64,000 bases of DNA from an uncultured bacterium (GTDB lineage: Bacteria > Patescibacteriota > Minisyncoccia > Phycocordibacterales > PALSA-1337): contig CAIMDG010000001.1 of the NCBI GenBank assembly GCA_903839725.1, positions 107,559 to 171,558 of the forward strand. The letters are read 5' to 3'. This document shows positions 6,505-35,615 of the stretch, one piece after another (positions within the stretch are counted from its first letter, which is position 1; each line of letters begins with the position of its first letter). The position numbers and the translations under genes were made by a program. The notes beneath the pieces are model-generated. The model did not search any database and had not been told where the DNA came from. It worked only from the letters and a program-made list of their open reading frames with translations.

Positions 6505-6628
6505 AGAGACACAGGGGGTGTATGTACTCATTTTCTGCGCAAGTTTAGAGACACATACATTACACCGCGTACCCCAATGTTTACAAACTTGCGCAGAAAA
6601 TGAGTACATACACCCCCTGTGTTCTGTG
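6505..6628. repeat. Palindromic intergenic repeat, family copy A (inverted orientation relative to B/C)
   Basis: Long near-perfect hairpin; core ctcattttctgcgcaagttt...aaacttgcgcagaaaatgag shared with copies at 26407 and 29272. Confidence 0.85.
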
Positions 6629-29271: not shown

Positions 29272-29397
29272 AACCCTGCACACAGGGGTAGTATTCTCAT
29301 TTTCTGCGCAAGTTTGTAAACATTGGGGTACGCGGTGTAATGTAAGCGTCTCTAAACTTGCGCAGAAAATGAGAATACTACCCCTGTGTGCAGGGTT
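29272..29397. repeat. Palindromic intergenic repeat, family copy C
   Basis: aaccctgcacacaggggtagtattctcattttctgcgcaagttt...aaacttgcgcagaaaatgagaatactacccctgtgtgcagggtt followed by TTTTT. Confidence 0.85.
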
Positions 29398-31736: not shown

Positions 31737-32015
31737 TTATTTAGTGACGATGTGAACAATGTTCTTGCGGACAATGTCATTGTTATAACTTGTCTTGCGC
31801 TTGGTACTGAAATGAACAACACCATCTTTGAGAGCAAAGAGGGTATAGTCTTTACCTGAACCAACATTCTTACCAGGAAGGCATGTTGTGCCACGCTGAC
31901 GGAGGATGATCTGACCTGAAGTGATTCTTTGACCATGATTGGCCTTAACTCCAAGGTATTTTGGATTTGAATCGCGACCGTTCTTTGTTGATCCTGCTGC
32001 TTTCTTATGTGCCAT
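31737..32015 (-). CDS. rpmA: 50S ribosomal protein L27
   Basis: [24 protein letters not shown]... Confidence 0.9.
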
Positions 32016-32077
32016 GGTAGTGGGTGATTGGGGTTAATTAAGTCGAGAAAGTATACCATAGCGTTTAAAATATGCAA

Positions 32078-32268
32078 GGAAATAGACCTAAAATGGCTCG
32101 TATCTCTTCAAGAAGTCCTGAAATACATACAATTAGCAGGACGCGGATATTTTTCTGCTGAAAAATTCCTAGTGCTCGCCTCAGTCAGGCTCGCAGTGTC
32201 CTGCTAATTGTATGTATTTCAGGACTTCTCCTCAACTGACGATTATTAGCCATTTTAGGGCTATTTCC
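32078..32268. repeat. Nested long inverted repeats (outer 20-bp arms enclosing inner 31-bp arms)
   Basis: Outer ggaaatagacctaaaatggc (32078-32097) vs gccattttagggctatttcc (32249-32268); inner gaagtcctgaaatacatacaattagcaggac (32112-32142) vs gtcctgctaattgtatgtatttcaggacttc (32198-32228). Confidence 0.85.
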
Positions 32269-32440
32269 AGCAGGGAGGGCGGTAATGTGGCTTAAAATAA
32301 GGGTATTTTGTACCTAAAATATGGCTCTGTTAAGCCGTATAAAGAGGGTAGGGGTATTGACTTTTGGGTTGCGAGGTGCTAGTATATACCGACAAATGAG
32401 CGAACGTAAGCACCATGCTTACCAAGCTCGTTTTTAAATT

Positions 32441-32926
32441 ATGATTGAACTTACAACTGGTGTCGCGTTTCTCGTGTCGTCTTTGTATGCTGCAGGACAA
32501 CCTCAGCAAGCTCAAATGACAATTCAGACAGTCGAACCTACAGTAGCAACGAGTACTACTATAGAAGCTACAAGCACAGCAAGCTCATTCACAGATTCAA
32601 AAACCGTTGAAGCATATCTCCGTAAGGAATATGTAGATACGCCTATTCTCGTCGAAGTCGCTCGTTGCGAATCGACATTCCGTCAGTATGACAGCACTGG
32701 TAATGTTATCCGTGGTAGAGTCAACTCCGCTGACGTCGGTGTGATGCAGATCAATGAAAAGTATCACTCTGACCAGGCACTCAAGCTTGGATACAATATA
32801 TACACCGTAGAGGGTAACGTGGCATATGCCAAGTACCTCCACACCAAGTTTGGACTACAACCATGGAACTCATCATCACCATGTTGGTCACATCATACTG
32901 GATCTGAGCTAGCTATTAACAAATAG
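32441..32926 (+). CDS. Secreted lytic transglycosylase-like (SLT/lysozyme-like domain) protein
   Basis: Signal/TM N-terminus; SLT family-1 motifs ARCESTFRQ (catalytic Glu) and VGVMQIN. Confidence 0.6.
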   Translation: MIELTTGVAFLVSSLYAAGQPQQAQMTIQTVEPTVATSTTIEATSTASSFTDSKTVEAYLRKEYVDTPILVEVARCESTFRQYDSTGNVIRGRVNSADVGVMQINEKYHSDQALKLGYNIYTVEGNVAYAKYLHTKFGLQPWNSSSPCWSHHTGSELAINK

Positions 32927-34195: not shown

Positions 34196-34322
34196 AACTA
34201 CCAATATATATGAGCTTTGCCGAAACATCAGTGACGTGCAAATATACATGCCTAAAGAACAAAATAATTAAACGAAATCCCGCTGGGAATTGTTTCGGCA
34301 AAGCTCATATGTATTGGTAGTT
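34196..34322. repeat. Long inverted repeat (32-bp arms, 1 mismatch, 63-nt loop) downstream of M23 peptidase gene
   Basis: aactaccaatatatatgagctttgccgaaaca vs tgtttcggcaaagctcatatgtattggtagtt. Confidence 0.85.
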
Positions 34323-34331
34323 CCGTACCTA

Positions 34332-35615
34332 TTAGAGATAAGATAGGGGGTTCAGGTATGCATTGTAGTCGGCAAATGGTATGACTGCCCCGATACAATG
34401 TGATGCAGGGAAAGCACTACGTGTAATGGAAGTGATGCGTATACCATCACTTGCATATACTCCGAAGTGTAAGTGTGGACCAGTGACATTTCCTGTGTTT
34501 CCACTGTAGCCAATGATTTCTCCTGTGCTCACTGACTCACCAGTGCGCACGCTCTGCAATGATAAATGGGCATATAGCGTTGAAAGACCATTTGAATGTT
34601 TGACCATGATCCATTTTCCGTATGAGTAGCAACCGGGTATTGCACTAGTATTACTTACACCGATGACAGTGCCAGACAAAGCTGATTTGATAGGAGTTCC
34701 GATTGATGCACGAAAGTCTACGCCGTTGTGCCCTTTCCCACTGTAAATTTGAGGATTTTTTGCTGAAAAATCGGTATTACCAAAATATTGTGTGACGATA
34801 GGGTTGTCGAGTGGCCAGGATAAAACTCCTGAACCAGTATGTGGTAGGTTCGAAGTATTTATTTTCAAGTGAAGTTGTGATTCGTAGCTATCGATTTCAC
34901 GTTGAATTGCGTCCGCCTGAGCTTGTCTATCAGCAACTATTTTCTTGTATTGAGATTCTGACTGTTTGGTTTGAGCGAGTAAAGCATTTTTCTCGGCAGT
35001 AGTGGAAAGTACAACTGAACGTTGATCTTTGATTTGATTGTTAAGTTTGACGAGATCATCTTTTGCTTTTTGGCTTGCGGCACGATTGGTCTCGAGCTTC
35101 GTTTTTGTTGCACGCAAGGAATCTATCTTATCAAATAAATTTTTCTGTATAGATTCGAGGTGATCGAGTGAATTCCATGTATCGCCCAATGATTGGCTTG
35201 AAAGGATAAGCTCTGGAATACTTTGACTGCCAAGCTGATCAAGAGTGCTAAATGTGTAGCTGATGATACGTTGATCATCAGTAATAGTACTTTCTTTGTT
35301 TGATATCTGACCGGTTAATTCTTGAATTTCGAGATTTTTAGAAGCAATTTTATTCTCAGTAATCTTGATATCTGCCGCAAGTTTTTTCTGTGTCAAATCG
35401 AGAGATTTAATCGTTGAAGCAAGAGAGCTTGCTTGACTACCTATGGTATCAAGTTGTTTTTGATATCCTTGAATTTCCTTCTGTAGGGCTTGAATGTCAG
35501 CTGTGCGTTGGTCAATTTTTGATTGGAGATTGGTTGTCTGGGCGTATGATCCAGGAATAAAAAGCAGTGAAATGAAACTGATTAAGACAACCTTATAAAA
35601 TCGAGGGTGTGTCAT
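34332..35615 (-). CDS. M23 family peptidoglycan DD-metalloendopeptidase with N-terminal coiled-coil (EnvC-like)
   Basis: Signal peptide, about 250 aa coiled-coil, M23 motifs HNGVDF (HxxxD) and HLHFGV (HxH). Confidence 0.85.
   Translation of the reverse strand: MTHPRFYKVVLISFISLLFIPGSYAQTTNLQSKIDQRTADIQALQKEIQGYQKQLDTIGSQASSLASTIKSLDLTQKKLAADIKITENKIASKNLEIQELTGQISNKESTITDDQRIISYTFSTLDQLGSQSIPELILSSQSLGDTWNSLDHLESIQKNLFDKIDSLRATKTKLETNRAASQKAKDDLVKLNNQIKDQRSVVLSTTAEKNALLAQTKQSESQYKKIVADRQAQADAIQREIDSYESQLHLKINTSNLPHTGSGVLSWPLDNPIVTQYFGNTDFSAKNPQIYSGKGHNGVDFRASIGTPIKSALSGTVIGVSNTSAIPGCYSYGKWIMVKHSNGLSTLYAHLSLQSVRTGESVSTGEIIGYSGNTGNVTGPHLHFGVYASDGIRITSITRSAFPASHCIGAVIPFADYNAYLNPLSYL

What the first reader, a model, noticed from the sequence alone, without database searches (positions are those of the whole stretch)
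32078..32268. Nested long inverted repeats (IR within IR) in the rpmA | SLT-protein intergenic region
An outer 20-bp IR (1 mismatch) encloses an unrelated inner 31-bp perfect IR with a 55-nt loop. A third partial copy of the outer arm (acctaaaatatggctc) lies at about 32320. The structure is different in sequence from the A/B/C family. It suggests MITE-into-MITE insertion or a complex cruciform or attachment site.
Basis: seen in the sequence. Interest (0 to 1): 0.5.

Follow-up and report, generated by a model that had tools for sequence, protein, structure and literature searches.

The report
Conserved-core long hairpin element family
The nested inverted repeats are real and form one long, interrupted hairpin whose tip carries a small, highly conserved three-way-junction motif; the same motif, on stems of unrelated sequence, occurs in more than a hundred intergenic sites of ultra-small (Patescibacteria/CPR) bacteria and matches no catalogued RNA family.

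Summary
The inner repeat is 32 nt, perfect, with a 55-nt loop. The outer repeat is 21 nt with one mismatch. Neither arm recurs in the window.

"MITE into MITE" is not the best reading. The informative part is the 55-nt loop. In an 84%-related species the same rpmA|SLT spacer carries a hairpin with 35-nt perfect arms of different sequence. Its loop is almost identical, and all six internal differences form three compensatory pairs.

A scan with 21 specified bases of the loop found at least 120 metagenome loci. Each has the same core flanked by its own complementary arms, up to 43 bp and often perfect. Some loci hold up to 6 copies in 13 kb.

Covariation supports a three-way junction: P1, the long variable stem, plus P2 and P3. 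Arm mismatches are G·U/G·A on one strand only, the window's minus strand. Outer repeats beyond an internal loop recur in the family. They appear to arise as inverted copies of one flank.

Best reading (about 0.5): a strand-specific structured small RNA on a long duplex stalk. The main rival is a REP/MITE-like single-stranded DNA element. There is no Rfam match and no literature hit. No promoter was found and the function is unknown.

The parts
32078..32098 (.). Outer left arm (GGAAATAGACCTAAAATGGCT). Ancestral flank that abuts the rpmA -35 box and contains one copy of the AAAATGGCTC motif.
   Evidence: I2; aligns with GGGGAAAGGCCTA...AAAATATGAGCC of L022, which has no hairpin.
32248..32268 (.). 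Outer right arm, an inverted copy of the left arm with one mismatch.
   Evidence: No counterpart in the relatives that lack the element.
32111..32142 (.). Inner left arm. This is the 3' strand of the long stem P1 when read on the minus strand.
   Evidence: 32 nt, perfect.
32198..32229 (.). Inner right arm. This is the 5' strand of P1 when read on the minus strand.
32143..32197 (-). Conserved 55-nt core. Read on the minus strand: ACUGCGA-GCCU-GACUG-AGGC-GAGCACU-A-GGAAUUUUUC-AGCA-GAAAAAU(A)UCC-GC.
   Evidence: 46 of 53 positions identical to L019, with 3 compensatory pairs. This is the core shared by the whole family.
32145..32169 (-). P2 hairpin: 10 bp with one bulged base and a 4-nt loop.
   Evidence: These 25 nt (21 specified bases, loop left open) found at least 120 metagenome loci. 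Diverged members keep the pairs through changes on both sides.
32171..32197 (-). P3 hairpin: a 4-bp stem (32178-32181 with 32187-32190) extended through tandem G·A pairs.
   Evidence: 3 of the 4 stem pairs and 2 to 3 of the extension pairs show changes on both sides. Window GCCU/AGGC against L019 GGGC/GCCC.
32130..32210 (-). Match to the family covariance model R1 (core plus the inner 13 bp of P1).
   Evidence: 91.1 bits, E = 8e-20, minus strand. It is the only significant hit in the 64-kb window.
32050..32077 (-). Probable rpmA promoter: -35 TTGCAT at 32077-32072 and extended -10 TGGTATACT at 32058-32050. It lies immediately outside the outer arm.
   Evidence: Read. Conserved in the relatives aligned. 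It falls below the threshold of the consensus scan.
32313..32327 (+). It is part of a conserved upstream block of the SLT-like gene, not part of the hairpin.
   Evidence: D9.

Best explanation
The 191-nt nested repeat is one copy of a widespread, uncatalogued family of Patescibacteria hairpin elements. Each copy is a conserved ~55-nt apex that folds, on one strand only, into a three-way junction. P3 is a short G+C-rich hairpin entered through tandem G·A pairs. P2 is an A/U-rich 10-bp hairpin with a bulged base. The apex sits on a long stem, P1, whose sequence is free to vary as long as it pairs.

In the window the structured strand is the minus strand, the same sense as rpmA. The 'outer' repeat is simply P1 continuing beyond a 12/18-nt internal loop.

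Most likely mechanism (inferred, not shown):
- The minus strand is transcribed into a ~120-190-nt hairpin RNA.
- The conserved apex is the functional part, a binding platform for a trans-acting factor.
- The long near-perfect duplex serves as a processing stalk (RNase III type), a stabilising stalk, or a hairpin terminator.

The stems lengthen and stay perfect through a DNA-level process in which one flank is copied in inverted orientation to the other side (fold-back or template-switch synthesis). That process produced the outer repeat here.

Shown: the family, the fold, its strand specificity, and the origin of the arms in three comparisons. Inferred: transcription, processing, and the existence of a partner factor.
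For: (1) Orthologous copy. L019 (SLT protein 84% identical) has, at the same site, a hairpin with 35-nt perfect arms only ~55-60% like the window's, with mirrored indels. Its loop is 46/53 identical and all 6 internal differences are 3 compensatory pairs. rpmA third codon positions differ at 33%.

(2) Family. All show the same core between locus-specific complementary arms. 22 of 53 copies with arms of 20 nt or more are perfect.

(3) Fold. RNAalifold independently predicts P1, P2 and P3. Pair counts give 93% of cells paired against 75% in shuffles and 37-57% when the partners are slid. P3 and P2 covary in diverged members.

(4) Strand. In arms of 79 copies, mismatches read on the minus-sense strand are G·U 53 and G·A 33, against A·C 11 and C·U 6 (binomial P = 1e-7 for G·U against A·C). 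The bias extends at least 24 bp from the core and does not depend on flanking gene orientation.

(5) The same P3+P2 module also sits in the T-loop of tRNA-like and tmRNA-like mini-structures, directly downstream of and co-oriented with a tRNA-Ser gene and a tmRNA gene. That is a second scaffold for the same module, which fits an RNA better than a DNA site.

(6) The core evolves much more slowly than neighbouring coding DNA in orthologous pairs (flanks 72-89% identical, cores nearly identical).

(7) A frequent 1-nt indel in the P3 loop rules out a coding frame.

(8) An exact outer repeat of 10 nt or more in the 50-nt flanks occurs in 16% of members against 0.7% of shuffled flanks.

(9) Filled-versus-empty comparisons show one arm is ancestral flank and the other its inverted copy: L199 against L207, L164 against L215, and the window against L022.
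Against: - No sigma-70-like promoter is enriched upstream in the inferred RNA sense: 13 of 72 copies against 9-16 of 72 in the three control placements.
- No expression data were available.
- In co-directional gene contexts the structured strand is antisense to the neighbouring genes 25:8. That needs an independent antisense transcript.
- G·T and G·A are also the least destabilising mismatches in single-stranded DNA, so the strand asymmetry does not prove RNA.
- Long perfect 30-40-bp duplexes, multi-copy clustering (6 copies in 13 kb) and a nested insertion are more typical of selfish DNA repeats.
- P2 is invariant in the main alignment by construction of the search pattern.
- P1 pairing was partly selected for when I defined the arms.
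- The fold-back origin of arms rests on only three comparisons.
Confidence: 0.5

Rival explanations
1. The element is a dispersed palindromic DNA element, a REP/BIME- or MITE-like selfish repeat. Its conserved core would be the recognition site, folded on one DNA strand, for a trans-acting HUH nuclease or recombinase encoded elsewhere. The long arms would be by-products of hairpin-templated DNA synthesis.
For: - Multi-copy, with up to 6 copies in 13 kb.
- Presence/absence between related genomes.
- One copy is nested inside another element's arms.
- 25 nt of P2 are identical across lineages as distant as Taylorbacteria and a Wildermuthbacteria-like genome, which suggests spread or homogenisation.
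- No promoter signal.
- Element orientation correlates with GC skew, 41:17, as expected for replication-coupled single-stranded DNA elements.
- Perfect arms and mirrored indels need a DNA-level process.
- G·T and G·A are the most stable DNA mismatches (established knowledge).
Against: - No conserved terminal repeats and no direct target duplication.
- No transposase, recombinase or other recurrent protein within 2.5 kb of ~110 copies. Neighbours are housekeeping genes.
- The orthologous window and L019 copies have kept the core under purifying and compensatory change while synonymous sites diverged 33%. That is not expected for a decaying selfish copy.
- The structured strand is complementary to the G-rich (leading/coding) strand. 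This is the opposite of IS200/IS605-type elements, whose active strand lies on the lagging-strand template (plus established knowledge).
- The module also occurs inside tRNA-like scaffolds co-oriented with tRNA and tmRNA genes.
Confidence: 0.27
2. The hairpin is a locus-specific cis-regulatory structure of the divergent rpmA / SLT-like gene pair. It could be a leader, an operator array or a supercoil-absorbing cruciform insulator between two back-to-back promoters.
For: - It lies exactly between the probable rpmA promoter (32050-32077, minus strand) and the SLT promoter (32357-32385, plus strand).
- The outer arms each carry a copy of the AAAATGGCTC motif, which is repeated in the conserved upstream block of the SLT-like gene.
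- It is conserved in position in three related species.
Against: - The same core occurs at more than 100 unrelated loci next to many different genes.
- About 70 related species keep the rpmA/SLT pair and both promoters without any such hairpin.
- The hairpin lies upstream of both promoters, not in either 5' UTR as far as the promoters can be placed.
Confidence: 0.1
3. The repeats flank an invertible DNA segment (an inverton). The 55-nt core, or the 149-nt segment inside the outer repeat, would flip between the repeats and switch something on or off.
For: - Two same-species contigs from different samples show the core in the flipped orientation relative to one flank: L005 (7 nt of evidence) and L012 (22 nt).
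- Several contigs of this species and of the L019 species end inside the hairpin.
- The geometry of the outer repeat (21-nt arms, 149 nt between them) resembles known switches (my own knowledge).
Against: - Both flipped junctions sit at contig ends. Fold-back library chimeras, or de Bruijn ambiguity at a 32-nt perfect repeat, produce exactly the same junctions. Logan contigs (k = 31 by my own knowledge, not a tool result) break exactly at the arm.
- All 9 contigs that span the whole hairpin have the reference orientation.
- L019 and L014 have the same orientation.
- 9 of 9 duplicate loci of other family members from different samples show no flip.
- The arm mismatch asymmetry is tied to core orientation, which could not persist if the core flipped often.
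- The arms are not conserved, as recombinase sites would be.
- No recombinase gene was seen nearby.
Confidence: 0.04
4. The hairpin is a functionless palindrome produced by replication errors (quasi-palindrome correction), and any resemblance to other loci is coincidental.
For: - The window holds several other long unique hairpins: 34196-34322, 54590-54691 and 2695-2788.
- The arms seem to arise by inverted copying of flanks.
Against: - The core is conserved, with compensatory changes, across species and across more than 100 loci.
- The covariance model scores the window copy at 91 bits.
Confidence: 0.03

Closest known systems
REP/BIME and ERIC-type repetitive extragenic palindromes of enterobacteria
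   Same: Dispersed, intergenic and multi-copy. Often sits just after stop codons. Forms hairpins, sometimes in paired opposite orientation. A BIME can carry a conserved protein-binding motif between two palindromic units.
   Different: In those families the palindromic arms are the conserved part. Here the arms are unique to each copy and only the apex is conserved. The stems are far longer (20-43 bp, often perfect). No RAYT-like gene was seen.
Bacterial MITEs (for example Correia/NEMIS, RUP)
   Same: Small and non-coding, with inverted-repeat ends. Intergenic, with presence/absence between relatives. One nested case was seen (L143).
   Different: There are no shared terminal repeats and no direct target-site duplication. 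The internal core rather than the termini is conserved. Orthologous copies are under purifying and compensatory selection.
Stalk-flanked processed RNAs (rRNA processing stems cut by RNase III) and natural 'tRNA-scaffold' RNAs
   Same: A functional RNA is presented on a long duplex whose sequence is free to drift as long as it pairs. The same module also occurs inside a tRNA-like scaffold next to tRNA and tmRNA genes.
   Different: Neither processing nor transcription has been shown here. The element is multi-copy. The stems are more perfect than RNA function alone requires.
ssoA-type single-strand origins of rolling-circle plasmids
   Same: A long, strand-specific, orientation-dependent hairpin with a variable stem and a short conserved element at the apex.
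   Different: Those lie on plasmids and act on the displaced single strand. This element is chromosomal and multi-copy, sits on the strand complementary to the G-rich strand, and has no plasmid or Rep context. The resemblance is recalled from memory, not tested.
Invertons (invertible promoters flanked by inverted repeats)
   Same: Intergenic inverted repeats of about 20-30 nt flanking a short segment, with assembly breaks at the site.
   Different: No contig spanning the whole hairpin has a flipped allele. The repeat sequences are not conserved. No recombinase was seen.

Membership tests
Family defined here (conserved-core hairpin; covariance model R1) | Significant match to the model of the P1/P3/P2 three-way junction | tested here: met
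   window 32130-32210, minus strand, 91.1 bits, E = 8e-20. The L019 orthologue scores 96.7 bits.
Family defined here (conserved-core hairpin; covariance model R1) | Core flanked by locus-specific complementary arms | tested here: met
   32-nt perfect arms that are unique in the window.
MITE | Terminal inverted repeats shared between copies | tested here: not met
   The arms have no other copy in the window or in 1.4 Mb of fetched loci. Arms differ between all family members.
MITE | Direct target-site duplication flanking the element | tested here: not met
   Reading: no direct repeat at 32078/32268 or at 32111/32229. Filled-versus-empty comparisons show inverted, not direct, duplication.
MITE | Multiple copies in the same genome | tested here: inconclusive
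   One copy in the 64-kb window. The source genome is not in the genome collection. Other genomes have up to 6 copies in 13 kb.
MITE | A related autonomous element or transposase | tested here: inconclusive
   No recurrent protein within 2.5 kb of about 110 copies. Whole genomes could not be searched.
REP/BIME | Short conserved imperfect palindrome with an associated RAYT transposase | tested here: not met
   The arms are not conserved. No such gene was seen nearby.
Any Rfam 15 family | Score at or above the gathering threshold | tested here: not met
   Whole window: 0 hits. Region 31980-32480 at E up to 10: one chance-level miRNA hit elsewhere in the spacer. Ten family loci: only tRNA, rRNA and intron hits elsewhere in those loci.
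Inverton | Both orientations present, each supported across both junctions | tested here: inconclusive
   Flipped junctions appear only at two contig ends. All 9 contigs spanning the whole hairpin, and 9 of 9 duplicate loci elsewhere, are unflipped. Raw reads were not available.
Inverton | A site-specific recombinase that acts on the repeats | not tested
   Neighbouring genes with Pfam hits on record are a PDZ/S41 peptidase, L9, NUDIX, L27, an M23 peptidase and a tRNA synthetase; the SLT-like gene and two small ORFs have none. The rest of the window was not scanned for recombinases.
Intrinsic terminator | Hairpin followed by a U tract at the 3' end of a gene | tested here: not met
   The window copy lies between the 5' ends of two divergent genes, and the terminator scan does not call it. 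On the minus strand a U-rich stretch (UUGCAUAUUUU) does follow the outer stem. Many other members sit 0-30 nt after a stop codon.
Retron ncRNA (a1/a2 repeats enclosing the msr-msd hairpin) | Adjacent reverse transcriptase gene | tested here: not met
   The flanking genes are rpmA and the SLT-like gene. No recurrent neighbour protein in the family.

The most novel reading that the evidence does not exclude
A previously unrecognised class of Patescibacteria small RNA. It would be a compact three-way-junction module displayed on two interchangeable scaffolds: a self-extending, near-perfect long duplex, or the T-loop of a tRNA/tmRNA-like mini-structure. Its genes would multiply through the genome, and its stems would grow by fold-back copying of flanking DNA, so that each copy acquires a unique stem.
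Probability: 0.35. Interest if true: 0.75.

Novelty: new variant of a known kind. Interest (0 to 1): 0.62.

Why it matters
If the family is what it appears to be, it adds an abundant, strongly conserved non-coding element to a huge and poorly understood branch of bacteria with tiny genomes, where every retained non-coding feature is likely to matter.

Its architecture, with a conserved apex on a free but perfect stem, is the reverse of classical bacterial repeats. It may also expose a mechanism by which palindromes grow from flanking DNA.

There is a practical point as well. These 30-40-bp perfect repeats break metagenome assemblies and can create fold-back contig ends. That fragments CPR genomes exactly at such sites.

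The covariance model built here gives a direct way to annotate the family and to test expression in existing metatranscriptomes.

Tried and rejected
- Other copies of either arm. None in the window with up to 3 mismatches. None in the fetched loci.
- Rfam, tRNA and tmRNA scans of the window and region. Nothing relevant.
- Viral contigs scanned with the core pattern. 0 hits.
- Literature searches by topic and by the literal sequence. Nothing.
- Conserved neighbouring protein. None found.
- Promoter enrichment upstream in either sense, T-tract after the hairpin, and -10-like motifs. No convincing signal.
- MFE-based measure of 'extra outer pairing'. It proved uninformative because shuffled A/T-rich flanks also pair. 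I replaced it with an exact-run test.
- An alternative pairing that extends P2 (GCAC/GUGC). Rejected in favour of the P3 extension, because the observed covariation (CUUG..GCAC to CUAG..GCUC, and C-G to A-U) fits the latter (reading).
- Coding potential of the core. Rejected because of the frequent 1-nt indel in the P3 loop.
- Hammerhead-like reading of the junction. Rejected by inspection: the joining strands are only 1, 1 and 3 nt and the core nucleotides differ.
- The other long hairpins of the window (34196-34322, 54590-54691, 2695-2788 and the A/B/C family). No relatives among the fetched loci.
- L016 (78% relative). It keeps a 16-bp stem at the site but has no recognisable core even with filters off. 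I could not decide between decay of the core and a pre-existing hairpin.

Full report
**Observation**

The sequence contains two nested inverted repeats.
- Inner repeat: 32111-32142 / 32198-32229, 32 nt, perfect, with a 55-nt loop.
- Outer repeat: 32078-32098 / 32248-32268, 21 nt, one mismatch, 149 nt between the arms.

Neither arm occurs elsewhere in the 64-kb window with up to 3 mismatches, and no shuffle reproduced the pairs. The 207-nt region folds at about -108 kcal/mol on either strand, against -47 for shuffles.

The repeats lie between the 5' ends of rpmA (minus strand, 31737-32015) and a 161-aa SLT-like gene (plus strand, 32441-32926). Homologues of the SLT-like protein place the organism among Candidatus Taylorbacteria / Paceibacteria, within Patescibacteria. 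Rfam and tRNA scans found nothing.

**Local comparative picture**

The divergent rpmA / SLT arrangement is kept in about 76 related loci fetched from the genome and contig collections. The spacer ranges from 139 to 445 nt.

Two things are conserved in the relatives aligned:
- a probable rpmA promoter (TTGCAT ... TGGTATACT on the minus strand, 32077-32050);
- a ~155-nt block upstream of the SLT-like gene (32285-32440), holding repeated AAAATATGGCTC motifs, a TTGACT-17-TAGTAT promoter and a leader hairpin followed by a U run.

A long hairpin between these two conserved parts exists only in the window's species, in L019 (84% SLT identity) and, in degenerate form, in L016 (78%).

The key observation is in L019. 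Its hairpin has 35-nt perfect arms that are only about 55-60% like the window's and carry mirrored indels. Its loop is 46/53 identical, and all six internal differences make three compensatory pairs in a 4-bp stem (GCCU/AGGC to GGGC/GCCC). Over the same divergence, third codon positions of rpmA differ at 33%. So the 'loop' is the conserved, structured part and the arms are the free part.

**The family**

I scanned JGI metagenome contigs with GGATATTTTTCNNNNGAAAAATTCC, which is 21 specified bases of the loop. IMG/VR returned none.

In nearly every locus the same ~55-nt core is flanked by complementary arms unique to that locus. Arms reach 43 bp, and 22 of 53 copies with arms of 20 nt or more are perfect.

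A covariance model built from 66 copies gave these results:
- the window copy scores 91 bits on the minus strand and is the only copy in the window;
- the L019 orthologue scores 97 bits, and two weaker copies lie in other Taylorbacteria-type genomes;
- 123 copies were found in 740 kb of the metagenome loci, with up to six in 13 kb in L136.

L136's proteins are closest to Wildermuthbacteria-like Patescibacteria, so the family spans distant lineages.

No protein family recurs within 2.5 kb of the copies; the neighbours are housekeeping genes. I found no description in Rfam 15 or in the searchable literature.

**Structure and strand**

RNAalifold and my own reading agree on a three-way junction:
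- P1, the long variable stem;
- P3, GCGC-GAC(U)G-GCGC, entered through tandem G·A pairs and a short extension;
- P2, GGAAUUUUUC-AGCA-GAAAAAU(A)UCC.

Three of the four P3 pairs and two or three extension pairs show changes on both sides. P2 covaries in the diverged copies found by the model.

Mismatches in the arms are strongly asymmetric. Read on the strand complementary to GGATATTTTTC (the window's minus strand) they are G·U 53 and G·A 33, against A·C 11 and C·U 6 (P = 1e-7 for G·U against A·C). The bias extends at least 24 bp from the core and holds whatever the orientation of the flanking genes. So one particular strand is the selected, folded molecule.

A frequent 1-nt indel in the P3 loop excludes a reading frame.

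**Context**

- Copies are intergenic and often sit 0-30 nt from a stop codon.
- In runs of co-directional genes the structured strand is antisense to the genes 25:8.
- The structured strand is complementary to the G-rich strand 41:17.
- No sigma-70-like promoter is enriched upstream in either sense.
- A second architecture carries the same P3+P2 module inside the T-loop of tRNA-like and tmRNA-like mini-structures. These lie immediately downstream of, and in the same orientation as, a tRNA-Ser gene and a tmRNA gene.

**The outer repeat**

Exact outer repeats of 10 nt or more in the 50-nt flanks occur in 16% of members, against 0.7% with shuffled flanks. An interrupted, 'nested' stem is therefore a trait of the family.

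In the window the left outer arm is ancestral. It aligns with the sequence next to the rpmA -35 box in L022, which lacks the hairpin, and it includes the first AAAATATG(A/G)GC motif. The right outer arm has no counterpart in relatives lacking the element and is its inverted copy.

Two filled-versus-empty comparisons elsewhere show the same pattern, with one arm being an inverted copy of pre-existing flank on the other side: L199 against L207 and L164 against L215.

Together with the perfect arms and mirrored indels, this points to fold-back or template-switch copying as the way stems grow and stay perfect. This step is inference from three cases.

**Inversion**

Several contigs of this species and of the L019 species end inside the hairpin. 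Two, L005 and L012, carry 7 and 22 nt of the core in flipped orientation next to one flank. Fold-back chimeras and graph ambiguity at a 32-nt perfect repeat give identical junctions.

Against real inversion:
- all nine contigs that span the hairpin are unflipped;
- nine of nine duplicate loci of other members are unflipped;
- the strand asymmetry of the arms is tied to core orientation.

I rate real inversion as unlikely.

**Verdict**

The finding is real. It is not an ordinary terminator, a known RNA or a classical MITE.

- Best supported (about 0.5): a member of a new family of strand-specific structured elements, most likely small RNAs displayed on a long duplex stalk.
- Main rival (about 0.27): a REP/MITE-like element that acts as single-stranded DNA.
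- Weakly supported: a locus-specific regulatory role, an invertible switch, or a functionless palindrome.

The function of the conserved apex is unknown. Neither transcription nor processing has been shown.

Noticed in passing
window 32285-32440: A ~155-nt block upstream of the SLT-like gene is nearly invariant in the two closest relative species and recognisably conserved in the nine more distant relatives aligned. It holds two to three direct copies of AAAATATGGCTC, one of them forming the palindrome TATGGCTC-N6-GAGCCATA. It also holds a TTGACT-17-TAGTAT promoter and a leader hairpin (GAGC..GUAAGCA-CCA-UGCUUAC..GCUC) followed by UUUUU just before the ATG. The outer leader stem covaries (GAGC/GCUC to CAGG/CCUG). 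This looks like an operator array plus an attenuator-like leader, or a small RNA.
   Followed up: partly
window 6509-6622, 26408-26527, 29272-29397: This is the 'A/B/C' family: three ~115-125-nt hairpins with 44-49-nt arms that share sequence in both arms and loop. It is a conventional palindromic repeat family, unrelated to the element studied here. No relatives were found among the fetched loci.
   Followed up: partly
window 34196-34322; L016 5768-5884: A unique hairpin (32-nt arms, 63-nt loop) lies between a 101-aa gene and the M23 peptidase gene. The 78% relative L016 has an unrelated 40-nt perfect hairpin at the same position, and L019 has none. Long unique hairpins seem to turn over at fixed intergenic sites in this lineage.
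   Followed up: partly
window 54590-54691 and 2695-2788: Two further long unique inverted repeats: 26-nt arms with a 50-nt G+C-rich loop, and 30-nt arms with a 34-nt loop. Not examined further.
   Followed up: no
L005 1-39; L012 1-54; L006, L007, L014 and L015 contig ends: Metagenome contigs of this species and its relative repeatedly end inside the 32-35-nt perfect repeat. Two carry fold-back or flipped junctions. These hairpins are a practical cause of fragmentation, and possibly of chimeric ends, in CPR assemblies.
   Followed up: partly
L193 594-740 and 8915-9050: The same P3+P2 module is inserted in the T-loop of mini tRNA-like structures. These copy the acceptor and T-arm sequences of the tRNA-Ser gene and the tmRNA gene lying just upstream. 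They could be a tRNA-scaffold version of the RNA or a scar of insertion into a duplicated tRNA 3' part.
   Followed up: partly
L143 1050-1310; L155 4748-4933; L136 2339-2536: A variant core (GGAUUUUUUGA-AGCU-UAAAAAAUCC ... GGCU-CGUC-AGCC) occurs next to canonical copies in opposite orientation. In L143 a 17+5-nt outer repeat encloses both cores.
   Followed up: partly
L104, L119, L126, L136, L173, L186, L209 (arms); L122 and L140 (outer stems): Within closely related copies the stems are mostly conserved, apart from an 8-13-bp patch that differs completely between copies yet stays complementary. I have no explanation for this.
   Followed up: no
L003 3174-3710 and an unfetched contig from sample ERZ1426659, compared with window 34332-35615: Same-species contigs differ in the M23 peptidase gene, which is 178 or 174 aa there against 427 aa in the window. 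This suggests structural variation or a mis-assembly nearby.
   Followed up: no
L021, L023, L025, L028, L052, L076, L046 (rpmA-SLT spacers): Other lineages with long spacers carry unrelated inserts that share a TGTCAA (TTGACA on the minus strand) at a similar place. This may be an extra minus-strand promoter. L057 has a different G+C-rich long hairpin there.
   Followed up: no
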